Position numbers and translations under genes: made by a program
Source of the DNA: a virus
Taxonomy: Duplodnaviria > Heunggongvirae > Uroviricota > Caudoviricetes
DNA: 10,474 bases
IMG/VR virus record: IMGVR_UViG_2698536570_000004
Reading direction: 5' to 3' (one strand)
Notes under the pieces: model-generated
The model's database searches: none
Told to the model about the DNA's origin: nothing
The model's input: the letters and a program-made list of their open reading frames with translations, nothing else
Shown: piece after piece, positions 1 through 10,474 of the stretch
How positions within the stretch are numbered: position 1 is the stretch's first letter
Layout: every line of letters starts with the position of its first letter

Positions 1-711
1 CTGACTGAGCCGCACTTCAGAGATGAAAAACCGTTTGACGCCATCGTATCTAACCCACCGTATTCGGTGAAATGGATTGGCAGCGATGACCCGACGCTGA
101 TTAACGATGAACGTTTTGCCCCGGCTGGCGTTCTGGCCCCCAAATCCAAAGCTGACTTTGCGTTTGTATTACATGCGCTGAACTATCTTTCTGCCAAAGG
201 TCGTGCTGCGATTGTCTGCTTCCCGGGCATTTTTTACCGTGGCGGCGCGGAGCAGAAAATCCGTCAGTATCTGGTTGAAAATAACTATGTCGAAACCGTG
301 ATTTCACTGGCACCGAACCTGTTCTTTGGCACCACCATTGCCGTAAATATTCTGGTGCTGTCTAAACATAAAACGGATACCAAAGTTCAGTTTATTGACG
401 CCAGCGAACTGTTCAAAAAAGAGACTAACAACAACATCCTGACCGATGCCCATATCGAAAAAATTATGCAGGTATTTTCCAGCAAGGAAGATGTTGCTCA
501 TCTGGCGAAATCTGTCACGTTTGAGACCGTTGTCGCGAATGACTATAACCTGTCGGTAAGCAGCTATGTGGAAGCGAAAGATAACCGCGAAATTATCGAT
601 ATCGGTGAGCTGAATGCTGAGCTGAAAACCACGGTCAGCAAAATCGACCAGTTGCGTAAAGATATTGATGCAATTGTGGCTGAAATTGAAGGCTGCGAGG
701 TGCAAAAATGA
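1..711 (+). CDS. hsdM: Type I restriction-modification methyltransferase subunit HsdM, C-terminal part (5' end lies upstream of the window)
   Basis: Frame 1 is open from nt 1 to TGA at 709-711. Translation from nt 1 gives [25 protein letters not shown]..., with the N6-adenine methyltransferase NPPY motif at nt 52-63. The stop overlaps the hsdS start (ATGA at 708-711). The 67..711 ORF in the track is the same frame starting at an internal GTG. Confidence 0.9.
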
Positions 712-1964
712 GCGAGTTAAGTTATCTGGAAAAATTGCTGGATGGGGTTGAGGTTGAGTGGAAACCCTTGAAGGATGTTTGTGATTTTAAAAATGGATTT
801 GCATTTAAAAGCAGCTTATTTAAAGAAACTGGGTTACCGATAGTCAGAATCACAAATATAGATGGATTTAATGTTGACTTAGATGAGGTGAAATACTTTT
901 CACTAAATGATTACAAGGAAGATTTATCCTCCTTTGAGGTATCTATGGGAAATATATTGATTGCAATGTCAGGTGCCACTACAGGAAAGGTAGGAATTTA
1001 TAAAAAAGGAACAAAATGTTATCTTAACCAACGGGTTGGGAAATTCATACCCAAAGAAAATATTCTAAACAATAATTATTTATACCATTTTTTATTGTTA
1101 AATACAGAGACTATTTATATCCTCGCCGGGGGCGGAGCACAACCGAACCTAAGCTCAAATGCATTGATGTCAAAACTACTCATCCCAATCCCTTGCCCGG
1201 ATAATCCGGAAAAATCCCTTGCCATCCAGTCTGAAATCGTTCGGATTCTGGATAAATTTACTGCACTTACCGCTGAGCTTACCGCTGAGCTTAACATGCG
1301 TAAAAAACAGTACAACTACTATCGCGACCAATTGCTGAGTTTTGATGAGGGTGAGGTTGAGTGGAAGGCATTGGGAGAAGTAGCCAAAATACAACGAGGG
1401 GCATCCCCCAGACCAATTGTTAATTATCTTACTGAACAAGGAAATGGTATCCCATGGATTAAAATCGGAGATACTATACCCGGCTCTAAATACATTGACA
1501 AAACCTTACAAAAAATAACTGCAGAGGGTGCCCAAAAATCGCGAATCTTGAACCCCGGTGATTTCGTCATTTCTAACTCTATGAGCTTTGGCAGACCATA
1601 TATTTTAAGGATAACCGGAGCTATCCATGATGGATGGGCATCAATCAGCAATTTTGGTGAAAAATTAAATGCTGATTATCTGTATCACTATCTTTCATCA
1701 AAAAAGGTGAAAAATTATTGGGAAAGTAAAATCAATAGCGGGTCGGTCAGTAACTTGAATGCAGATATTATAAAAACATTACCAGTGCCATTGCCTGATA
1801 AACAGAAACAAGAGCGAATATCTGCTCTGCTCGATAAATTCGACACCCTGACCAACTCCATCACCGAAGGTCTTCCGCGTGAAATCGAGTTGCGCCAGAA
1901 ACAATACGAGTACTATCGTGATTTACTGTTCAGTTTCCCAACACCTGAAACTGTCAGTAATTAA
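708..1964 (+). CDS. hsdS: Type I restriction-modification specificity subunit HsdS (418 aa), type IC-like
   Basis: ATG at 708 overlaps the hsdM stop. The protein has the HsdS architecture: two variable target-recognition domains separated by a conserved central region (...[33 protein letters not shown]) and a matching C-terminal conserved region (...[36 protein letters not shown]). The tandem TAEL repeat is the signature of the EcoR124I family as I recall it. Confidence 0.92.
1266..1293 (+). repeat. Tandem 12-bp repeat CTTACCGCTGAG x2 plus partial third unit (CTTA), encoding LTAELTAEL in the HsdS central conserved region
   Basis: Direct reading: 1266-1277 and 1278-1289 are identical 12-mers in frame with hsdS, and 1290-1293 repeats the first 4 nt. 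Confidence 0.9.
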
Positions 1965-2085
1965 TTGACCATTGCTACCGACCGGGCCACCTTAACACCC
2001 GGTCTGTATATAGACTATTTTTTACGCGCCGGAAGTCACTCTTAACGCCCTTCCGGCCCTTGCCAGGCGGCACAAAGGATGCGCT
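1965..2085 (+). promoter_or_regulatory. hsdS-hsdR intergenic region: probable hsdR promoter region, two stem-loops and the hsdR ribosome-binding site
   Basis: The 121-bp gap holds stem-loop 1 (GACCGGG 1980-1986 / CCCGGTC 1998-2004) and stem-loop 2 (GCCGGAAG 2028-2035 / CTTCCGGC 2050-2057). Both loops contain CTTAAC. There is a TATATA at 2007-2012, a T-run at 2018-2023, and AAGGAT 6 nt upstream of the ATG at 2086. No clean -35/-10 pair could be fixed by eye. Confidence 0.4.
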
Positions 2086-5000
2086 ATGACTCATCAAACA
2101 CACACCATTGCTGAATCCAATAACTTTATCGTCCTTGATAAGTACATCAAAGCTGAGCAAACAGGCGACAGCTACCAGAGCGAATCGGACCTGGAACGTG
2201 AACTGATTCAGGACCTGCGGAATCAGGGCTATGAATTTATATCCGTAAAATCTCAGTCGGCTATGCTGTCCAATGTTCGGGAACAGCTTCAGAGCCTCAA
2301 TGGTGTGGTGTTTAATGACAGCGAGTGGCGGCGTTTCACGGAGCAGTATCTGGACAACCCGAGCGATGGCATTCTGGATAAGACCCGTAAAATCCATATC
2401 GACTATATTTGCGACTTTATTTTTGATGACGAGCGACTTGAGAACATCTATTTGATAGATAAAAAGAATCTCATGCGCAATAAGGTGCAGATTATCCAGC
2501 AGTTTGAACAGACGGGTTCTCATGCTAACCGTTATGACGTCACGATCCTGGTTAATGGCTTACCACTGGTACAAATCGAACTGAAAAAGCGCGGCGTGGC
2601 GATTCGTGAGGCTTTCAACCAGATACATCGTTACAGTAAAGAGAGTTTTAACAGCGAAAATTCCCTGTTTAAGTATCTGCAACTGTTTGTCATTTCTAAC
2701 GGCACCGATACCCGTTATTTTGCCAACACAACAAAGCGCGATAAAAACAGTTTTGACTTCACCATGAACTGGGCGAAATCAGACAACACGCTGATTAAAG
2801 ACCTCAAAGATTTTACCGCTACCTTTTTCCAGAAACATACTCTGCTTAATGTTCTGGTGAACTACAGCGTTTTTGACAGCAGTCAGACGCTACTGGTGAT
2901 GCGACCGTACCAGATTGCTGCCACCGAGCGCATTCTGTGGAAAATTAAGAGCTCCTTTACAGCGAAGAACTGGTCAAAACCGGAAAGCGGTGGGTATATC
3001 TGGCACACTACCGGTTCTGGTAAAACCCTCACCAGCTTTAAAGCCGCGCGTCTGGCAACAGAGCTGGACTTTATTGATAAAGTCTTCTTCGTGGTCGACA
3101 GGAAAGACCTCGATTACCAGACCATGAAGGAATATCAGCGTTTTTCGCCAGACAGCGTCAACGGCTCGGAAAATACCGCAGGCCTTAAACGAAATCTGGA
3201 TAAGGACGATAACAAAATTATCGTCACTACTATTCAGAAACTCAATAACCTGATGAAAGCAGAAAGCGACCTGCCTGTATATAATCAGCAAGTGGTGTTT
3301 ATATTTGATGAATGCCACCGCAGCCAGTTTGGAGAAGCGCAGAAAAACCTGAAGAAGAAATTCAAACGCTATTATCAGTTTGGTTTTACCGGCACCCCTA
3401 TTTTCCCGGAAAACGCCTTAGGCTCAGAAACAACCGCCAGCGTATTTGGTCGTGAATTGCATTCGTATGTAATTACCGATGCGATTCGTGACGAAAAAGT
3501 GCTCAAATTCAAGGTGGACTACAACGATGTGCGGCCACAGTTTAAGTCTTTAGAGACAGAAACTGACGAGAAAAAACTGAGTGCGGCTGAAAATCAGCAG
3601 GCGTTTCTTCATCCCATGCGTATTCAGGAAATCACGCAATATATTCTGAATAATTTCCGCCAGAAAACCCACCGTACCTTCCCTGGCTCAAAAGGTTTTA
3701 ATGCTATGTTGGCAGTGAGCAGCGTGGATGCTGCAAAAGCCTATTACGCGACGTTTAAACGGTTACAAGAGGAAGCAGCTAATAAATCGGCCACCTATAA
3801 ACCGCTGCATATTGCGACAATCTTCTCCTTTGCTGCCAATGAAGAACAAAATGCCATTGGTGAAATTTCCGATGAAACTTTTGATACCAGCGCAATGGAC
3901 AGCAGTGCTAAAGAGTTTCTTGATGCTGCAATTCGTGAGTATAACAGCTATTTTAAAACTAACTTCAGCACCGACAGTAACGGTTTTCAGAACTACTATC
4001 GTGATTTAGCCCAGCGGGTTAAAAATCAGGATATCGATCTGTTAATTGTCGTGGGGATGTTTTTAACTGGCTTCGATGCTCCAACATTGAACACGCTATT
4101 CGTCGATAAAAACCTGCGTTTTCACGGCTTGATGCAGGCATTTTCCCGCACCAACCGTATTTATGATGCAACTAAAACCTTCGGTAATATCGTCACTTTC
4201 CGGGATCTGGAACGCTCAACTATTGATGCCATAACGCTGTTTGGTGACAAAAATACCAAAAATGTGGTTTTAGAAAAGAGTTATGCAGAGTATATGGAAG
4301 GCTTTACTGATGCTGCCACTGGTGAAGCTAAACGCGGCTTCATGACAGTAGTTTCAGAACTGGAACAACGGTTCCCTGACCCTACCAGTATTGAAAGTGA
4401 AAAAGAGAAGAAAGACTTCGTTAAACTGTTTGGTGAATACCTGCGTACCGAGAACATCCTGCAAAACTATGATGAATTTGCCACGCTGAAAGCCCTGCAA
4501 CAAATCGATCTTAGCGATCCTGTTGCAGTAGAAAAATTCAAAGCAGAACATTATGTGGATGATGAAAAGCTCGCTGAATTGCAAACAATTCGTCTCCCTG
4601 CTGATCGCAAGATTCAGGATTATCGTTCTGCCTATAACGATATTCGCGACTGGCAGCGCCGTGAGAAAGAAGCTGAGAAAAAAGAGAAATCAACCACTGA
4701 CTGGGATGACGTAGTTTTTGAGGTCGATTTGCTGAAGTCTCAGGAAATAAACCTGGATTATATCCTTGGACTGATTTTCGAACACAACAGACAAAATAAA
4801 GGCAAGGGCGAAATGATCGAAGAGGTCAAACGCTTAATTCGTTCAAGCCTAGGGAACCGTGCTAAAGAGGGCCTGGTGGTCGATTTTATTCAGCAAACGA
4901 ACCTGGATGATTTACCGGACAAAGCCAGCATCATTGACGCATTCTTTACGTTTGCTCAACGCGAACAGCAACGTGAAGCAGAAGCATTGATAAAAGAAGA

Positions 5001-5202
5001 AAATCTCAATGAAGATGCAGCAAAACGCTATATTCGCACGTCTTTAAAACGCGAATACGCCACCGAAAATGGCACAGAATTAAACGAAACATTACCAAAA
5101 CTTAGTCCGTTGAATCCGCAATATAAAACGAAAAAACAGGCAGTTTTCCAGAAAATCGTCTCGTTTATTGAGAAGTTTAAAGGCGTAGGCGGAAAAATAT
5201 AG
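2086..5202 (+). CDS. hsdR: Type I restriction enzyme R subunit HsdR (1038 aa), type IC-like
   Basis: A 3117-nt ORF with an RBS. It has an N-terminal PD-(D/E)xK-like nuclease region (...[19 protein letters not shown]...), Walker A TGSGKT (about nt 3010-3027), a DEAH-type motif II as DECH (nt 3307-3318), and a TGTP motif III. Its length and co-linearity with hsdM-hsdS fit the EcoR124I-type HsdR as I recall it. Confidence 0.95.
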
Positions 5203-5218
5203 CCCAATTCGTATTTTT

Positions 5219-5246
5219 CTTGCGGGTTCTTAATTAAACCCGCAAG
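5219..5246. other. Stem-loop between convergent hsdR and a minus-strand small ORF (10-bp stem CTTGCGGGTT / AACCCGCAAG, loop CTTAATTA); possible non-canonical terminator
   Basis: A perfect 10-bp inverted repeat read directly. No U-run follows on either strand (TTTTT precedes it on +), so its terminator function is uncertain. Confidence 0.3.
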
Positions 5247-5281
5247 AGACCGTGGGGTTCCAAATGGCTAATATACTCCCC

Positions 5282-5368
5282 TTACCCATGCGCGACAATG
5301 CTGCCAAAAGTGATAGAGAACAGCCAGAAATAGATCGCGGCCATAATGATTTTGAATGCCGTGTTCAT
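5282..5368 (-). CDS. Candidate small hydrophobic protein (28 aa, MNTAFKIIMAAIYFWLFSITFGSIVAHG); small membrane peptide or type I toxin-like
   Basis: ATG at 5368 (minus) is preceded by AGGAG with an 8-nt spacer. The 28 codons are strongly hydrophobic and end at TAA (5282-5284). A possible sigma70-like promoter (TTGATA, 17 nt, GAAAAT) lies upstream on the minus strand around 5425-5455. A 41-codon ORF on the opposite strand (5264-5389) overlaps it, so the coding strand is not settled. Confidence 0.3.
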   Translation of the reverse strand: MNTAFKIIMAAIYFWLFSITFGSIVAHG

Positions 5369-5395
5369 ATCTTCAGCTCCTGTGATTGATTTGAT

Positions 5396-5430
5396 ACATG
5401 CCGCGCCCCTTGCGGCATGTTTTTATTTTC
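5396..5430 (+). terminator. Rho-independent terminator-like hairpin on the + strand (stem ACATGCCGC / GCGGCATGT followed by TTTTTATTTTC)
   Basis: A 9-bp GC-rich stem (5396-5404 / 5412-5420) with a 7-nt loop, followed directly by a T-rich run to 5430. On the minus strand the same hairpin would sit in the 5' UTR of the small ORF at 5368. Confidence 0.55.
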
Positions 5431-5456
5431 ACCTTCTCTGCTTTAAATATCAAGAT

Positions 5457-5469
5457 TTATTAGAGCAAT
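5457..5469 (+). repeat. 13-bp motif TTATTAGAGCAAT, copy 1; followed by TATTGCT, making the palindrome AGCAAT-T-ATTGCT (5464-5476)
   Basis: Exact 13-mer shared with 7599-7611 and, as reverse complement, with 7546-7558. It overlaps the stop codon of the minus-strand phosphatase gene. Confidence 0.7.
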
Positions 5470-5975
5470 TATTGCTGATGAAGAAGCGCGTTTTCATACT
5501 CCCTGACCATTAACGTAAGCACGCCGTGACGCCTGAAAACACGCGCCACTTCAATCTTATCTTCCAGCGCGAACGCAATTTTGCTTAGACCAATTTTCTT
5601 AAGGAGATCAATCTTTGCTGGACCGTCATTTCTGTCATCGGTGGCAGGACGCATAGATAGCAAAGGCTCATCCCCGTTTGTTACGTACTTTCGCAGCCAG
5701 GCTCATGTTTTATCCCTTGCGATCTCACAGCGCCCGGTTACAAACCAGACCGTGTAAACGTTATATAACTGGCGCACAATATCAATAACTGGAGTTATGG
5801 GAGTATCAGTGTCACAGGCGAGATTAAACTCGTTCCAGTCCTTTGTTAATGCACCTTTACCTGGTGGCGGAAGCAAATGCAGTCTGTCTTCAGTTGCCTC
5901 TGATATTGTTCCATCAATATCAACTATGACGATATACGGACGTTCATGGTGTGCGTGTTGGTTGAAAATACTCAA
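5469..5975 (-). pseudogene. HAD-superfamily phosphatase resembling phage polynucleotide kinase 3'-phosphatase domains, interrupted by an in-frame TGA
   Basis: TTG start at 5975 preceded by a strong SD (GAGGAGG). The N-terminal part has HAD motif I (IVIVDIDGT) and, from recall of T4 Pnk, a ...CDTD..TGR... segment. The frame hits TGA at 5703-5705 and then continues in the same frame to TAA at 5469-5471, with a DDR-containing C-terminal part. The track shows this as two ORFs (5703..5975 and 5469..5663) in one frame. Confidence 0.55.
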
Positions 5976-5992
5976 ATGCCCTCCTCATTGGA

Positions 5993-6029
5993 CGAAAAAA
6001 ATGCTGGTGGGACGCACTCCACCAGCATT
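5993..6029 (-). terminator. Rho-independent terminator for the minus-strand 420-aa gene (stem AATGCTGGTGG / CCACCAGCATT followed by a U-run on the minus strand)
   Basis: An 11-bp perfect inverted repeat (6000-6010 / 6019-6029) with an 8-nt loop. The A-run at 5995-6000 on + gives a T-run immediately 3' of the hairpin on the minus strand. It lies 20 nt downstream of the stop at 6049-6051. Confidence 0.65.
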
Positions 6030-6048
6030 AAAAGTGACACTGTAACTA

Positions 6049-7311
6049 TCAGCGAACGTAAATAGTACCGCCGTTCTCTTTTTCCCATGCATCGCTACGT
6101 GCATAGCAAACATCGAGAAGTCTTCTTGCCGCAGTTTCTTCTAAACCCAATTCAACAACCAACTGCTCATGACGGCGGGTAACTACATCAAATAGGCTAT
6201 GCAGCCCTTTATTGGCCAGTTCATCAATGAATTCCGGTTCGAACGGTAGCTCTGCATCTGCCAACATAACCTCTTGCGCCCACTCGACACGGCGGACCAG
6301 TTCCGGGCGGCGGCTTTCCATCTCTTTACAGATCATTTCATGGAAGAACTCTACCCAACCTTCCGGCTGGAACTCGCGGAAAATGGCCAACGGCTGGAAG
6401 TTTGGCATCAACCATTCGTTGATACGGATATCAATGGCATAGCCCATGTCACAGCAGAACTGATAAGCAAAGTCCAGCTTAGAAACGATATAAGGACGCT
6501 CGTTATTGAACTCTTTAGGCGATGAGATTCCATAAGCCAGGAGGCGCGGGAAGAATGAGATTTGCCCTAACGTCGGATGGAGTTTGCTTGCAGGAAAACG
6601 GCGCTCAGTAATGCCATACATTTCCTTCTTGAGCATCGCAAATTTAGCATTTTCATTAACCAGCTCGGTAACCTCTGCTTTTTTATTAGCAAATGCCACG
6701 CGCGCCTCGCTTGCATCTTTAATAGCCTTTTTGAGCTGTTGGTTAAGGTCGGCGACCTGCTTACGCAGTTCCTGGCGCTCGCTTTTGGCTTTGTTATAAC
6801 GTTTCTCAAGGTTAAAAGGATCAAGTTTCATGATCTCTTTATATTGAGATTTTAGTGTTGAAATCTGTGAATTCCGCAGCTCAACCATAGCGGTCATTTC
6901 ATTGAGTTTTGTTTCCAACTCAATGCTTATACGTTCGGCATTATCAGCACGCTGGTTGGCGTCATGCGTCGCATCGTCGATGGCATCCTGTTGCTGGCGT
7001 TTCAAATGCTCAATTTGCAGCTGAAGATCTTCAATTTCTTTACCCTTCAGACCGAGATCCAACTGCATATTTTCAGCTGCATCTACCAGGTCGTTATGGC
7101 TATCAGCTTCTGCGTTATAAACATCAATAAGCTGTGCGTGAAGCATCTCAGCTGACTGAACCGCATTATCAAAAAAACGTGCTGTGAGGTCATCACAACT
7201 AACGCGGCGTTGCGCGGCTCGGATGTTCTGAATAATGGCCGGGATACCGGCATTCAGGACGTCAGGGATAGATACATTTTCGATTGATTGGTTTTGTGCT
7301 GAAGTGCTCAT
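6049..7311 (-). CDS. Hypothetical protein (420 aa): N-terminal coiled-coil region of about 230 aa rich in Q/E/K/A, and a C-terminal globular domain of unknown function
   Basis: A long ORF with the ATG at 7311 one nucleotide downstream of the preceding gene's stop, and its own terminator after the stop. No catalytic motif recognised. Confidence 0.75.
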   Translation of the reverse strand: MSTSAQNQSIENVSIPDVLNAGIPAIIQNIRAAQRRVSCDDLTARFFDNAVQSAEMLHAQLIDVYNAEADSHNDLVDAAENMQLDLGLKGKEIEDLQLQIEHLKRQQQDAIDDATHDANQRADNAERISIELETKLNEMTAMVELRNSQISTLKSQYKEIMKLDPFNLEKRYNKAKSERQELRKQVADLNQQLKKAIKDASEARVAFANKKAEVTELVNENAKFAMLKKEMYGITERRFPASKLHPTLGQISFFPRLLAYGISSPKEFNNERPYIVSKLDFAYQFCCDMGYAIDIRINEWLMPNFQPLAIFREFQPEGWVEFFHEMICKEMESRRPELVRRVEWAQEVMLADAELPFEPEFIDELANKGLHSLFDVVTRRHEQLVVELGLEETAARRLLDVCYARSDAWEKENGGTIYVR

Positions 7312-7312
7312 T

Positions 7313-7531
7313 TCAAAGTTCCGTATTAGCTTGTGCTTCGGTCATTTTTCCTAAGTATGAAGGTGGAAGGACTACGCAATTTGTATCCAGTCCCTCACCA
7401 ATGGCAGCCTGTAAAATTCTGGCTAAGGTGAGTCTCTTGTTGCGATACCGGGTGATGACATGCCTGATATCGCCGGACGGTGTAACAAAGGCGATCAGCC
7501 AGTAGTGATATTTCCGTCGGAATGGCCACAT
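7313..7531 (-). CDS. Hypothetical small protein (72 aa)
   Basis: ATG at 7531 preceded by AGGTG with a 4-nt spacer; the stop at 7313-7315 lies 1 nt from the start of the 420-aa gene, suggesting co-translation. No recognised family. Confidence 0.5.
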   Translation of the reverse strand: MWPFRRKYHYWLIAFVTPSGDIRHVITRYRNKRLTLARILQAAIGEGLDTNCVVLPPSYLGKMTEAQANTEL

Positions 7532-7545
7532 AGTGCACCTTATGG

Positions 7546-7558
7546 ATTGCTCTAATAA
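7546..7558 (-). repeat. 13-bp motif, inverted copy (ATTGCTCTAATAA on +, which is TTATTAGAGCAAT on -)
   Basis: Exact reverse complement of the 13-mer at 5457-5469 and 7599-7611. With the 7599-7611 copy it forms a 13-bp inverted repeat flanking a 40-bp spacer. Confidence 0.7.
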
Positions 7559-7583
7559 AAAACGTGATGAGTGTACATCACGT
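7555..7583 (-). terminator. Candidate rho-independent terminator on the minus strand after the 233-aa gene (stem ACGTGATG / CATCACGT, loop AGTGTA, then T-run on the minus strand)
   Basis: An 8-bp perfect inverted repeat (7562-7569 / 7576-7583). The A-run at 7554-7561 on + gives TTTTTTATT directly 3' of the hairpin on the minus strand. Confidence 0.45.
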
Positions 7584-7598
7584 ATTAAAAATATGGAA

Positions 7599-7611
7599 TT
7601 ATTAGAGCAAT
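7599..7611 (+). repeat. 13-bp motif TTATTAGAGCAAT, copy 3
   Basis: Exact direct repeat of 5457-5469. It lies immediately 3' of the stop codon (7613-7615) of the 233-aa minus-strand gene. Confidence 0.7.
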
Positions 7612-7612
7612 A

Positions 7613-8314
7613 TTATTCTAATTCTCGCTCAAAAAACGAGCTAATGAGGGGAAGCCAATCCTCTGACACTTCGCGAGGCCGCGGTTTGCCGTGGAAAAAG
7701 ATTATTCGGCAGTCCTTTGGTAATGTCCCATTCCCCCTGGAGTAACGCGCGCTCGCATATTTTGAACCAGGTTCCACAACATCGGCCTTGTAACTTACAA
7801 ACCATCCTGGATACAGATCCTGAAATGCTGGTGTGTCATCGCCCATAACCTTCCGCAAGAACCCCTGATCCCCCCAGCACTCAGTTGTAACACAACGAGC
7901 AATCCAACCTTCCGGATCTTGCCAGAATGCACTCCAGATATGCGCTTTTACACTATTTGGTATCCACAGAGCACCGCTGCCACGATATTGTGGATGGTAA
8001 AAATCCCTAAGCATGGTGAAGTTGGTTGGTGGATTCTCAAGAATTGGGCGTATATCACCGGCAATAACCGTGTCCAAATCCAGATAGAACAGATCATCGG
8101 TTATATCAGGTCGGAACAACTCGATTTTCGCCCACCAGCCACGGCACTTTTGCCACTGGTTGATTAATGGGACAACCTTAACGCCTGGCACATGTAAACG
8201 CTTCAGGTCTGTCAGGCAAATAATTTCATAGCCTTTTGGCAGTTGATTAACCAGCCACTGCACATCGGAAGCGTTATAGTCACCACCAGAGCGAAGAACT
8301 AAAGCAATCTTCAT
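7613..8314 (-). CDS. Hypothetical protein (233 aa), possibly a nucleotide-sugar glycosyltransferase-like enzyme (acidic LDLD, DxD-like motif)
   Basis: ATG at 8314 overlaps the upstream phosphatase stop (ATGA). It contains ...[13 protein letters not shown]... and a C-terminal ...[10 protein letters not shown]... segment. The glycosyltransferase call rests only on the DxD-like motif and is weak. Confidence 0.7.
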
Positions 8315-9003
8315 GCTGCACCATCACCTTTCACTTTCATCAATGTCAGGTTTCCGCAAAATACGGCACCAGTGTCGATATAATGCTGATTCCAGAATGT
8401 CTTCGGGCTTTTCACCGGAGTGTGACCAAAGATAAAACGATCTGCGCCCGAAATTTCGCCACCAATATCATCCATCGAATCACTGATACGCTCGCGCGCC
8501 CAGACAACGTTGAAAAGCGGCACCTCCTTACCGAATTGATATTCATTATCCGGATAGTCGGCATGAGCTATAACGATAGTTTCTTGCCCGGTGTTCAACT
8601 CAATGATATAGGGCAGTCGTCTTACCAACTCCACCAGCGCCCTGGCTAATATTTCCTGATCAGCGTCCAGCATGAAGAACCATTGACCGCCATTCATTAG
8701 CCAGTTATTCACGTTGCCATCAGGACTTAACGCATCAATCATCAGCCGCTCATGGTTGCCCATAACCGCTCTGAACCATGGCATCTGCAATAGCTCCAGG
8801 CATTTAACATTTTCGGTGCCGCGATCGATAAGGTCGCCGACCGATATCAGTAAATCCTGCGCCGGGTCAAAATCCACACGATGGAGTTCGGACATCAGTC
8901 TGGTGTAGCAACCATGCAGATCACCAACAACCCAGACATTCCTGTATTTGGTCCCGTCGATACGGTGATAAATTGTTGGTGCCATCATGTATTCTTCAGC
9001 CAT
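8311..9003 (-). CDS. Ser/Thr protein phosphatase of the calcineurin-like metallophosphatase family (lambda NinI / E. coli PrpA-PrpB-like)
   Basis: Metallophosphatase motifs GDLHG, GDLIDRG and GNHE, and a C-terminal ...[17 protein letters not shown]... The overall pattern matches lambda NinI-type phosphatases from recall. The likely true start is the second ATG pair (M6/M7, about 8985-8988), which overlaps the upstream gene's TGA. Confidence 0.88.
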
Positions 9004-9611
9004 TCTTTAAGAGTCATCTGCGGAATACCTCCCATTTTCCCGCATGAAACAACGTCAATCTGTTCACGCGCAGACTGGAATAACAAAGGCAGGTGACTTA
9101 GATTTTTTGGCGTGCCGCCGGAGTGAACGCGTGGTTCTTGCGTAGCGTCAACGCCCACCAGGGCTACATGTTTGAATCCGATATGGAAAGCCAGGTTCAG
9201 AGCACCATATGCACTATTGCCGCTGGCAATTTCATTCTCATCTTCGCAAAGGCCGAAATGTGCGGACCAGCGCCACGCCCACCACTCGGGAGAATTCGTA
9301 TTTTTTGGCTCCGTGCCGCGCTCAGCCACACGACGGAAGCACAGAACGCCGTCTCTGACCTCACGTTCTTTAACATTGGGTAGCGCCATGCAATAACAAA
9401 CACCACGGCGACGGCGGCCACGACCAACGCGCCGCATATTGTCTGGCGATGGATCAAGGGTGAAAAAATAAGAAGCGCGGTTAAGCCAGTCGATGGCCCC
9501 ATTGACCGCTATAATCGGCACTCCGCGCGGCGCAACAAAGTTTGCGGCGCTAGGGCCACTGCCGACGATAATAACGCGATCACTGCCTCTAAATTTATTC
9601 TTGGGAAACAT
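8985..9611 (-). CDS. Rossmann-type protein, paralog B (208 aa): N-terminal VGSGPS glycine loop, IIAVN strand, [26 protein letters not shown] motif; carries an Arg-rich insert ([11 protein letters not shown])
   Basis: ATG at 9611. The motif order matches the sialyltransferase GT42 / MptE-like (DUF115) pattern as I recall it. It is paralogous to the adjacent upstream gene, and the Arg-rich segment is encoded at about 9402-9434. Confidence 0.7.
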
Positions 9612-10171
9612 TGAATTGCACTGCTCCTACTTGCATTCAAAATATGTAAATCTGCGTGTTTTTTGCGGGTATCCAGGAACTGCTGTTGCCATTTTGAAAT
9701 AGACACCTGCGTTGGATTCCGTAGTGCTTGAGGGTGTGCTCCATGCCAATGAAGGCCGTTTTGCAGAGAACAGTCATAGCCGACTAATACAACTACTTCA
9801 GCCCCTGATTCAGCCGCCAGACTGATAGCCTGCGCGCCGCTATTAACCCCTTCAGCCGGTCCACAATATCGCCTGTACTCCAACGAAAATGATTTCGCCG
9901 CCGCCAGGTTGGCTGTCACTTTGCGGAATCTCCCTCCCGGTATGGTGGATCCGTATTGCTTCCACCATGACAAATCACCGGCGTATAAGGCATAAATGTC
10001 ATCGAACATCTGCCAGGAATTGTTAACCGCGATGATTGAACAGCCAGTTTTTTCTATAGCAGCACAGTCCTCACGAGTGAGTGACGGACCGCTACCGACA
10101 CAAAAAACAGTCCTAGTCGCCCTGGGTGGTATGTTCATTCTCAGCTGCAAATTCAGCCTCCAGGCGAGCAT
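9509..10171 (-). CDS. Rossmann-type protein, paralog A (209-220 aa): VGSGPS glycine loop, IIAVN, GVNSGAQAISLAAESGAEVVVLVGYD
   Basis: The ORF runs from 10171 to TAG at 9509-9511. The more likely start is the internal ATG at 10136-10138 (MNIPPRATRTVFCVGSGPS), which matches the spacing in paralog B. Its 3' end overlaps the start of paralog B by 103 nt in another frame. Confidence 0.7.
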   Translation of the reverse strand: MLAWRLNLQLRMNIPPRATRTVFCVGSGPSLTREDCAAIEKTGCSIIAVNNSWQMFDDIYALYAGDLSWWKQYGSTIPGGRFRKVTANLAAAKSFSLEYRRYCGPAEGVNSGAQAISLAAESGAEVVVLVGYDCSLQNGLHWHGAHPQALRNPTQVSISKWQQQFLDTRKKHADLHILNASRSSAIQCFPRINLEAVIALLSSAVALAPQTLLRRAECRL

Positions 10172-10268
10172 TCATTTCAGCGATTACCGGGTCCACTACA
10201 GCATCTGCTTCCTGTTCATTACGCGGCATGATCGATGCCAGCGATTCATAATTAGCCTTGGATGACAC
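10113..10268 (-). CDS. Hypothetical small acidic protein (51 aa, MSSKANYESLASIMPRNEQEADAVVDPVIAEMNARLEAEFAAENEHTTQGD)
   Basis: GTG at 10266-10268 preceded by GGGAGA with a 6-nt spacer. The stop overlaps the start region of paralog A. The track ORF 10113..10310 is the same frame extended upstream to a GTG with no RBS. Confidence 0.45.
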   Translation of the reverse strand: MSSKANYESLASIMPRNEQEADAVVDPVIAEMNARLEAEFAAENEHTTQGD

Positions 10269-10334
10269 GATTATTCTCCCGATGTTAATGTGCGCTATAT
10301 CAAAGAGCACACATGCACTAATTAATTTATTATT

Positions 10335-10474
10335 TCACGCAGCGTACAACCACTTGTCACCGTTCAATACATGCTCAATAGCCTCACCCTTTTTAAGGCT
10401 CATGTATTCCAGGAGGCACTGTTGCAAATAGTCGGTGGTGATAAACTTATCATCCCCTTTTGCTGATGGAGCTG
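10335..10474 (-). CDS. Hypothetical protein, C-terminal 45 codons only (gene continues beyond the right edge)
   Basis: The minus-strand frame is open from the window edge to TGA at 10335-10337 (...APSAKGDDKFITTDYLQQCLLEYMSLKKGEAIEHVLNGDKWLYAA). No family recognised from this fragment. Confidence 0.4.
   Translation of the reverse strand, partial: APSAKGDDKFITTDYLQQCLLEYMSLKKGEAIEHVLNGDKWLYAA

What the first reader, a model, noticed from the sequence alone, without database searches (positions are those of the whole stretch)
5457..7611. Three exact copies of a 13-bp motif (TTATTAGAGCAAT) at gene ends, two as direct repeats bracketing a 2.1-kb three-gene segment
Exact copies lie at 5457-5469 (+), 7546-7558 (inverted) and 7599-7611 (+). 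One exact 13-mer pair in 10 kb is near chance expectation, but three exact copies are not. Copy 1 is fused to its own half-site inverted repeat (AGCAAT-T-ATTGCT), and copies 2 and 3 form a 13-bp inverted repeat around a terminator hairpin. The two direct copies bracket the segment carrying the phosphatase pseudogene, the 420-aa gene and the 72-aa gene, and each sits immediately 3' of a minus-strand stop codon. Possible meanings are operator sites for a dimeric regulator, ends of a small MITE-like element, or recombination sites through which the 2.1-kb module was inserted.
Basis: seen in the sequence. Interest (0 to 1): 0.55.

Follow-up and report, generated by a model that had tools for sequence, protein, structure and literature searches.

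The report
Known phage P1 C1 repressor operators
The repeated 13-base word is the conserved core of three long-known binding sites (Op88, Op86a, Op86b) for the C1 lysogeny repressor of bacteriophage P1, sitting in front of successive phage operons in a P1-derived plasmid, so the finding is real but ordinary.

Summary
In detail: TTATTAGAGCAAT occurs exactly at 5457-5469(+), 7546-7558(-) and 7599-7611(+), well beyond chance. The window is a P1/P7-type phage-plasmid segment. It is 99.84% identical to an E. coli AW1.7 plasmid and about 96% identical to P1 and P7 over 5278-10414. The 13-mer is the reverse complement of the first 13 bases of the asymmetric 17-bp C1 repressor operator consensus, ATTGCTCTAATAAATTT. 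The three copies coincide base for base with operators annotated in the P1 and P7 GenBank records: Op88/OpmgT, Op86b/OpmgRb and Op86a/OpmgRa. A fourth, degenerate operator (Op83/Oppp) lies at 10312-10328. The copies "bracket" a segment only because each operator and promoter sits just after the stop codon of the preceding same-strand operon. The 2.1-kb stretch is therefore one C1-controlled transcription unit (pmgR-pmgS, then pap) followed by the operator of the next unit. No empty site was found in over 600 related replicons in each of two overlapping collections. In the closest complete plasmid the motif occurs only in the P1-derived arc, which also encodes a C1 protein 281/283 identical to that of P1. 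The operators are invariant islands in two lineages about 70% identical to the window. The MITE and recombination-site readings are rejected. This is already known and of low interest.

The parts
5453..5469 (-). C1 operator Op88 / OpmgT (ATTGCTCTAATAAATCT, 16/17 to consensus). It contains copy 1 of the 13-mer, and its first base is the last base of the pap stop codon.
   Evidence: Identical to the protein_bind 'phage repressor C1' features in P1 (OpmgT, former Op88) and P7 (Op(hea)). Kept at the orthologous site in JK004 and a Salmonella plasmid.
5425..5468 (-). Overlapping predicted sigma-70 promoters P1pmgT and P2pmgT, pointing leftwards. P1pmgT: -35 TTGATA at 5448-5453, -10 at 5425-5430. 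P2pmgT: -35 TTGCTC at 5463-5468 inside Op88, -10 at 5440-5445.
   Evidence: Transferred from the P1 annotation using the alignment offset. The independent consensus scan also finds P1pmgT. No transcription data.
5396..5420 (+). GC-rich hairpin followed by a T-run on the + strand. It is terminator-like for transcripts coming from hsdR. On the minus strand it lies in the 5' leader of the small ORF and has no U-run.
   Evidence: Conserved in P1 and P7 with a 2-bp loop difference.
5282..5368 (-). 28-aa hydrophobic ORF (MNTAFKIIMAAIYFWLFSITFGSIVAHG), the first ORF downstream of Op88/PpmgT. The left limit of P1/P7 homology (5278) lies just after it.
   Evidence: The same ORF is present in P1 and P7 with one residue different, and SJ46 annotates a 'membrane protein' under the match.
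5469..5975 (-). pap (putative acid phosphatase / 3'-phosphatase) pseudogene with an in-frame TGA at 5703-5705.
   Evidence: (RefSeq 'internal stop'), and 35 (weak HAD_PNKP match).
6000..6029 (-). Terminator-like hairpin (11 pairs) plus T-run between pmgS and pap.
6049..7311 (-). pmgS (shtB in P7), the 420-aa coiled-coil putative morphogenetic protein.
7313..7531 (-). pmgR (shtA in P7), the 72-aa protein and first gene of the Op86-controlled unit.
7546..7562 (+). C1 operator Op86b / OpmgRb (ATTGCTCTAATAAAAAA, 14/17). It contains copy 2 and lies between the predicted transcription start and the pmgR start codon. Its A-run encodes the U-run of the minus-strand hairpin.
   Evidence: Bases TTGCTCTAATAAAAAAC are invariant in four sequences from three lineages.
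7562..7583 (-). 8-bp hairpin (ACGTGATG/CATCACGT) followed by UUUUUU on the minus strand. It is a likely intrinsic terminator for read-through from the upstream ppp-pmgQ operon and is not annotated in the P1 record.
   Evidence: The 81-nt region that contains the hairpin folds at -24 kcal/mol, z = -6.4; that structure also includes the 13-bp stem formed by the two operator copies. 94% of cells are paired, and 2 of 8 pairs change on both sides in JK004 and the Salmonella plasmid. No terminator feature is listed here.
7582..7610 (-). Predicted sigma-70 promoter PpmgR. The -35 TTGCTC at 7605-7610 lies inside Op86a. The -10 at 7582-7587 is TAATAC here and TAAAAC in P1, and lies in the 5' arm of the hairpin.
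   Evidence: P1 annotation transferred by alignment. No transcription data.
7595..7611 (-). C1 operator Op86a / OpmgRa (ATTGCTCTAATAATTCC, 14/17). It contains copy 3 and ends one base before the pmgQ stop codon.
   Evidence: Invariant in JK004 and the Salmonella plasmid.
10312..10328 (+). Fourth C1 operator in the window, Op83 / Oppp (CATGCACTAATTAATTT, 13/17).

Best explanation
The three 13-mers are the conserved 5' cores of three 17-bp asymmetric operators for the phage P1 lysogeny repressor C1: Op88/OpmgT, Op86b/OpmgRb and Op86a/OpmgRa. They lie in a P1-derived phage-plasmid. In the prophage or plasmid state C1, helped by its corepressor Lxc, occupies these sites. Op86a covers the -35 of promoter PpmgR. 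Op86b sits 49 bp away, centre to centre, in inverted orientation in the transcribed leader, and probably acts as a second block or a looping partner. Together they silence pmgR-pmgS. Op88 covers the -35 hexamers of the PpmgT promoters and silences the next leftward unit. When C1 is inactivated by Coi or the Ant proteins, these promoters fire. The two direct copies bracket 2.1 kb simply because they are the operators of two consecutive same-strand transcription units, each placed right after the stop codon of the unit before it. Shown here: sequence identity and positional orthology to the annotated operators, conservation, restriction to P1-derived DNA, and the presence of the cognate repressor gene in the closest complete replicon. 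Inferred from the P1 literature and annotation: actual C1 binding, promoter activity and the mode of repression.
For: The window matches P1 and P7 at about 96% over 5278-10414. P1 and P7 annotate 'phage repressor C1' protein_bind features at exactly these sites, named Op88, Op86b and Op86a, and their sequences are identical to the window. The published consensus ATTGCTCTAATAAATTT is asymmetric, with 22 sites per P1 genome (PMC8546580). The window sites match it at 16/17, 14/17 and 14/17. Op88 was defined experimentally by Citron, Velleman and Schuster, J Biol Chem 1989, cited in PMC1934351. In the 105.6-kb AW1.7 plasmid (99.84% identical to the window) all 5 exact 13-mers lie in the P1-derived arc at 82.9-103.7 kb, as do 11 of the 12 sites within 4 mismatches of the 17-mer at positions and sequences expected for operators; the twelfth (TTTGCTCGTATAAATTT) lies inside the terminase gene. 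None lies in the roughly 80 kb of IS-bounded cargo, and three equal P1's Oc1a, Oc1d and Oc1e. That plasmid encodes C1 at 281/283 identity to P1 C1.100, and a gene of coi's size and position lies just upstream. In Cronobacter phage JK004 and a Salmonella plasmid, both about 70% identical, the operators are invariant blocks within diverged intergenic DNA.
Against: No binding or expression data exist for this particular sequence. The promoters are predictions carried over from the P1 record, and in the window the PpmgR -10 is weaker than in P1 (TAATAC against TAAAAC). The c1 gene is outside the window, so its presence is shown only for the nearest relative. That replicon is a degraded P1 remnant with most morphogenesis genes lost and pap a pseudogene, so the operators may be relics with little current function. 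Whether Op86b acts as a roadblock, a looping partner or just a C1 sink is not established here.
Confidence: 0.96

Rival explanations
1. The two direct copies (5457-5469 and 7599-7611) are recombination sites, or the ends of a cassette through which the pap-pmgS-pmgR module was inserted.
For: The copies are direct and exact and flank a discrete three-gene segment. The region to the left of Op88 is a variable cargo spot: pmgT-V in P1, the upf genes in P7 and type IC hsd here. Pap is absent in one lineage.
Against: A synthetic empty-site junction is spanned by 0 of 617 E. coli records and 0 of 613 PLSDB plasmids that match its flanks. The gene order pmgQ-pmgR-pmgS is kept in lineages at 70% identity. 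Where pap is missing, the operator is retained rather than consumed. The same word occurs at many other P1 promoters that have no cassette structure. The cargo breakpoint is at 5278, not at the motif.
Confidence: 0.02
2. The copies are the termini of a small MITE-like non-autonomous transposable element.
For: Copies 2 and 3 form a 13-bp inverted repeat 40 bp apart around a hairpin, which superficially resembles a tiny element.
Against: The 66-bp unit is conserved in place in three lineages, with the inverted repeats invariant and the interior diverging by paired changes. No extra copies of the unit exist in the 105-kb plasmid. There is no presence/absence polymorphism. The repeats are annotated operators.
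Confidence: 0.01
3. The sites are palindromic operators for a dimeric helix-turn-helix regulator other than C1, with AGCAAT-T-ATTGCT as the true recognition unit.
For: There is a perfect 6-1-6 palindrome at 5464-5476 in the window.
Against: The right arm is not conserved even in P1 and P7 (ATTGTT), nor in JK004 or the Salmonella plasmid. It lies in the pap coding sequence and matches only 8/17 of the operator. Copies 2 and 3 have no such partner. The conserved block is the asymmetric 13-17-mer.
Confidence: 0.01

Closest known systems
Bacteriophage P1/P7 C1 repressor operators Op88 (OpmgT), Op86a (OpmgRa) and Op86b (OpmgRb)
   Same: The 17-bp sequences, orientation, spacing, flanking genes and overlap with the annotated promoter hexamers are all identical.
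   Different: Nothing at the operators themselves. The context differs. Pap carries a premature stop. The PpmgR -10 has one substitution. The operon that Op88 controls in P1 (pmgT-U-V) is replaced, after a conserved 28-aa ORF, by a convergent type IC hsdMSR locus. The closest complete replicon is a degraded, IS26-bounded P1 remnant.
Dispersed asymmetric operators of other temperate phages, such as the mycobacteriophage L5/L1 repressor 13-bp sites
   Same: Many copies of one asymmetric word are scattered over the genome, at promoters and within transcription units, and are bound by a single repressor (PMC1934351).
   Different: The repressor family and the recognition word are unrelated. This is an analogy only, and it was not tested here.
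Type IC hsd loci flanked by P1 DNA (Tyndall et al. 1997, Mol Microbiol 23:729, cited in PMC12707154)
   Same: The window shows this arrangement: hsdM-S-R abuts P1 sequence that includes Op88. The P1 record itself notes 96-98% identity of this stretch to DNA downstream of the EcoDXXI and R124/3 hsd loci.
   Different: This concerns the neighbourhood of copy 1, not the motif.

Membership tests
P1-type C1 repressor operator | Match to the asymmetric 17-bp consensus ATTGCTCTAATAAATTT | tested here: met
   16/17, 14/17 and 14/17, with all three having 13/13 in the core. 0 of 200 shuffles give 3 matches. Consensus taken from PMC8546580.
P1-type C1 repressor operator | Positional orthology to operators annotated in the reference P1 and P7 genomes | tested here: met
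   The protein_bind features Op88/OpmgT, Op86b/OpmgRb and Op86a/OpmgRa coincide with the three copies, and the alignments are identical across the sites.
P1-type C1 repressor operator | Overlap with, or close proximity to, a promoter of the controlled operon | tested here: inconclusive
   The -35 hexamer TTGCTC of PpmgR and of P2pmgT lies inside Op86a and Op88 according to the P1 annotation. A consensus scan recovers P1pmgT only. The promoters are predictions, and there are no transcript data.
P1-type C1 repressor operator | Cognate c1 repressor gene in the same replicon | tested here: met
   In the closest complete replicon (99.84% identical to the window) c1 encodes a protein 281/283 identical to P1 C1.100. 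The c1 gene lies outside the window, so for the window's own replicon this is an inference.
P1-type C1 repressor operator | Motif confined to phage-derived DNA and conserved under divergence | tested here: met
   All exact copies in the 105.6-kb plasmid are in the P1-derived arc, and none is in about 80 kb of cargo. The sites are invariant in two lineages about 70% identical.
P1-type C1 repressor operator | Physical binding by C1 protein | not testable with these tools
   Published for P1 Op88 (Citron et al. 1989, cited). The window sites have the identical sequence.
MITE / insertion element ends | Terminal inverted repeats bounding a unit that is present in some genomes and absent in others, with multiple dispersed copies | tested here: not met
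   The copies that bracket the 2.1 kb are direct, not inverted. No empty site was found in 617 and 613 related records. The 66-bp inverted-repeat unit occurs once per replicon and is conserved in place.
Site-specific recombination cassette | Alternative or absent cargo between the two sites, with one site left at the empty junction | tested here: not met
   No junction-spanning match was found. The variable-cargo breakpoint is at 5278, 175 bp from the motif.
Intrinsic (Rho-independent) terminator (hairpin 7562-7583, minus strand) | GC-containing stem followed directly by a U-run, with the stem maintained by paired substitutions | tested here: inconclusive
   An 8-bp stem plus UUUUUU. The 81-nt region containing it folds stably, z = -6.4, partly because of the outer 13-bp operator stem. 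2 of 8 pairs change on both sides, but that is probably one shared event among 4 sequences. No 3'-end data.

The most novel reading that the evidence does not exclude
The Op86 region may be a compact coupled switch that P1's record does not annotate. A conserved hairpin plus U-run between the two operators would terminate read-through from the upstream ppp-pmgQ operon. Its U-run is encoded by the 3' end of Op86b. Its 5' arm carries the -10 of PpmgR, so transcripts started at PpmgR lack that arm and escape termination. If so, C1 occupancy, upstream termination and local initiation would be physically interlocked. Separately, in hsd-bearing derivatives like this one, derepression of Op88/PpmgT would send transcription antisense into the 3' end of hsdR.
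Probability: 0.3. Interest if true: 0.3.

Novelty: already known. Interest (0 to 1): 0.08.

Why it matters
It matters little beyond correct annotation. Recognising the motif as the C1 operator core identifies the window as P1-derived, explains the repeats without invoking mobility, and marks the boundaries of C1-controlled transcription units. It also points to a fourth, degenerate operator (Op83) in the window. One practical use follows. PGAP annotates none of these operators in the closest of the hundreds of P1-like plasmids in E. coli and Salmonella, so the 13-mer is a simple marker for P1-type immunity regions and early promoters, including in degraded remnants such as this one.

Tried and rejected
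1. An empty-site test used a synthetic junction (window 5370-5469 joined to 7612-7711) against complete E. coli genomes and PLSDB. No record spans the junction, so the recombination and MITE ideas were dropped.
2. The half-site palindrome at copy 1 is not conserved in any relative and was rejected as a functional unit.
3. The attempt to read the P1 genome paper (PMC523184) failed because it is not held. The GenBank annotation and secondary citations were used instead.
4. The full-text search for Op86/Op88 gave only a reference-list citation.
5. The genome-contig scan with PmgS returned only two near-identical Escherichia loci and was of no use for divergence analysis.
6. Pfam scans of PmgS, PmgR, PmgQ and C1 gave nothing above threshold.
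7. A distant PmgS homologue (22% identity, plasmid pEF-4) lacks the C1 word within 9.2 kb, so it could not serve as a conservation test. It did show an analogous motif of its own.
8. An exact string match of the window to the AW1.7 plasmid failed. BLAST showed 17 mismatches and no gaps, so the window comes from a very close relative, not from that record.
Full report
**Observation.** TTATTAGAGCAAT occurs exactly three times, at 5457-5469 (+), 7546-7558 (-) and 7599-7611 (+). No further sites appear even when 2 mismatches are allowed. None of 200 dinucleotide-preserving shuffles reached three matches. As a fairer null I asked whether any 13-mer reaches three copies when both strands are counted. 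In the window only this one does, and none did in 300 first-order Markov simulations. Copy 1 shares one base with the pap stop codon. Copy 3 ends one base before the pmgQ stop codon. Copies 2 and 3 are inverted around a hairpin.

**Identity of the window.** The finding region is 100% identical to two assemblies of an E. coli AW1.7 plasmid and 95-96% identical to phages P1, P7, SJ46, RCS47 and others. The whole window is 99.84% identical to the AW1.7 plasmid, with 17 mismatches and no gaps. Homology to P1 and P7 runs from 5278 to 10414. The last 60 bases are an IS26 end. Positions 1-5202 carry a type IC hsdM-S-R locus.

**What the copies are.**
- The P1 (AF234172) and P7 (AF503408) records annotate 'phage repressor C1' binding sites exactly under the three copies. 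They are OpmgT (former Op88), OpmgRb (former Op86b) and OpmgRa (former Op86a, which "controls expression of pmgR and pmgS").
- Alignments show that the window, P1 and P7 are identical across all three sites.
- The 13-mer is the reverse complement of positions 1-13 of the published asymmetric 17-bp consensus ATTGCTCTAATAAATTT. There are 22 such sites per P1 genome, C1 is assisted by the corepressor Lxc and antagonised by Coi (PMC8546580).
- In full, the window sites are:
  - 5453-5469 (-), ATTGCTCTAATAAATCT
  - 7546-7562 (+), ATTGCTCTAATAAAAAA
  - 7595-7611 (-), ATTGCTCTAATAATTCC
- A fourth annotated operator, Op83/Oppp (CATGCACTAATTAATTT), lies at 10312-10328.
- Op88 was defined experimentally by Citron, Velleman and Schuster (J Biol Chem 1989), cited in PMC1934351.

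- *Genome-wide abundance.* I reassembled the 105,640-bp AW1.7 plasmid from three fetched pieces. It holds five exact 13-mers and twelve sites within four mismatches of the 17-mer. All of them lie in the P1-derived arc at 82.9-103.7 kb, and none lies in the roughly 80 kb of IS-bounded cargo. Eleven of the twelve have the position and sequence of operators; the twelfth (TTTGCTCGTATAAATTT) lies inside the terminase gene. Three of the sites equal P1's Oc1a, Oc1d and Oc1e.
- *Cognate repressor.* That plasmid encodes a C1 protein 281/283 identical to P1 C1.100.
- *Empty sites.* A synthetic junction joining the left flank plus one 13-mer to the right flank is spanned by none of 617 E. coli records and none of 613 PLSDB plasmids that match its halves.
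- *Comparative alignment.* Cronobacter phage JK004 and a Salmonella Wandsworth plasmid are both about 70% identical to the window. In both, the Op88- and Op86a-type sites are found at the orthologous positions. Op86a, Op86b and Op88 are invariant blocks in intergenic DNA that has otherwise diverged.
- *Pap is separable.* In the Salmonella lineage pap is missing altogether. The Op88-type operator and the small ORF downstream of it remain, now directly after pmgS. Op88 therefore belongs to what lies downstream of it, not to a "2.1-kb module".

**Why the repeats bracket a segment.** All genes from 5282 to about 10300 are on the minus strand and tightly packed. Each operator and promoter is placed immediately after the stop codon of the preceding unit. 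The 2.1 kb is thus one C1-controlled unit (Op86a/b, then pmgR-pmgS, then a terminator-like hairpin at 6000-6029, then pap) followed by the operator of the next unit (Op88). The P1 annotation, transferred by alignment, places the promoter elements as follows:
- The -35 of PpmgR (TTGCTC, 7605-7610) lies inside Op86a, and its -10 is at 7582-7587.
- The -35 of P2pmgT (5463-5468) lies inside Op88.
- The -35 of P1pmgT (TTGATA, 5448-5453) lies beside Op88. The consensus scan recovers this promoter independently.

These promoters are predictions, and I have no transcript data.

**Mechanism.** Shown here: the sites are sequence-identical and positionally orthologous to the P1 operators, they are conserved under divergence, they are confined to P1 DNA, and the cognate repressor is present in the nearest complete replicon. 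Inferred from the P1 literature and annotation: C1 binds each asymmetric site (the record calls all three "monovalent"). It occludes the -35 at Op86a and Op88. At Op86b it binds in the transcribed leader 49 bp away in inverted orientation, where it could act as a roadblock or a looping partner. Inactivation of C1 derepresses these early units.

**The half-site palindrome.** AGCAAT-T-ATTGCT is perfect only in this window. P1 and P7 have ATTGTT there, and JK004 and the Salmonella plasmid differ further. The second arm lies in pap codons and matches the operator at only 8 of 17 positions. I regard it as incidental.

**The hairpin between copies 2 and 3.**
- On the minus strand ACGTGATG-N6-CATCACGT is followed by UUUUUU.
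- The 81-nt region that contains it folds at -24 kcal/mol, z = -6.4; that structure also includes an outer 13-bp stem formed by the two operator copies.
- Across four sequences 94% of cells pair, and two of the eight pairs change on both sides. The two divergent lineages share these changes, so this is probably a single evolutionary event.
- The P1 record lists no terminator here.
- Its U-run is encoded by the A-run of Op86b, and its 5' arm contains the predicted PpmgR -10.
- From this I infer that read-through from pmgQ would terminate here, while transcripts initiated at PpmgR would lack the 5' arm and continue. This is a modest, untested refinement of a known locus.

**Comparison with known systems.** This is not a relative of the P1 C1 operators; it is those operators. 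The context shows known features of P1-like phage-plasmids. There is a variable cargo spot to the left of Op88. There is also the previously described association of type IC hsd loci with P1 flanks: Tyndall et al. 1997, cited in PMC12707154, and the notes in the P1 record on EcoDXXI and R124/3.

**Verdict.** The "operator" interpretation is correct in kind, although the sites are asymmetric C1 sites and not those of a dimer. The MITE and recombination readings are rejected. The finding is already known and of low interest.

Noticed in passing
window 1-5278: A type IC hsdM (partial)-hsdS-hsdR locus occupies the place where P1 has pmgT-U-V and P7 has upf86.8 to upf89.5. It converges on the Op88/PpmgT promoter. 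Homology to P1 and P7 begins at 5278, just after a conserved 28-aa ORF. This matches the published association of type IC hsd loci with P1 flanks. It also means a C1-controlled promoter now points antisense at the 3' end of hsdR, with no canonical minus-strand terminator in between.
   Followed up: partly
window 5282-5368 (-): A 28-aa strongly hydrophobic ORF (MNTAFKIIMAAIYFWLFSITFGSIVAHG) with a good Shine-Dalgarno sequence is the first ORF downstream of Op88. It is conserved in P1 and P7 (one residue different) and recognisable in JK004 and the Salmonella plasmid. It is not annotated in the P1 or P7 records; SJ46 calls it a 'membrane protein'.
   Followed up: partly
window 5703-5705 (within pap, 5469-5975, -): Pap is inactivated by a single in-frame TGA and is otherwise full length. 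RefSeq flags the same 'internal stop' in AW1.7.
   Followed up: yes
window 7562-7583 (-): A conserved hairpin plus U-run lies nested between Op86a and Op86b and is not annotated as a terminator in the P1 record. Its U-run is the A-run of Op86b, and its 5' arm holds the predicted PpmgR -10. Paired substitutions occur in two divergent lineages.
   Followed up: partly
window 10312-10328 (+): A fourth C1 operator, Op83/Oppp (CATGCACTAATTAATTT), is identical to that of P1 but has 4 mismatches to the consensus.
   Followed up: yes
window 10415-10474; L003-L005 (NZ_CP073625.1): The window ends in an IS26 terminus. The closest complete replicon is a heavily decayed P1-type plasmid. It keeps repA, parAB, cre, a ref pseudogene, a coi-sized gene, c1, pacAB, lpa, phd/doc and this block. 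Most morphogenesis genes are replaced by IS-bounded cargo (ttr, ptxD/phn, mla, rpoH, McrBC-like genes and others).
   Followed up: partly
L010 (E. fergusonii pEF-4, NZ_CP137859.1) 3966-3984 and 5240-5258: A distant P1-like lineage (PmgS homologue 22% identical) lacks the C1 word within 9.2 kb. It has its own motif, TGTGTTAGAAAWTTAAATT, in direct orientation 23 bp before the start and 15 bp after the stop of the PmgS-like gene (0 of 200 shuffles give 2 matches). Weaker copies lie at 2913 and 5400. This is probably the operator of that lineage's own repressor, in the same bracketing geometry.
   Followed up: partly
L011 (Salmonella plasmid NZ_CP146848.1) 2122-2203: This lineage has no pap gene. 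The Op88-type operator follows pmgS after 64 bp, so pap is an optional insert between the pmgS terminator and Op88.
   Followed up: partly
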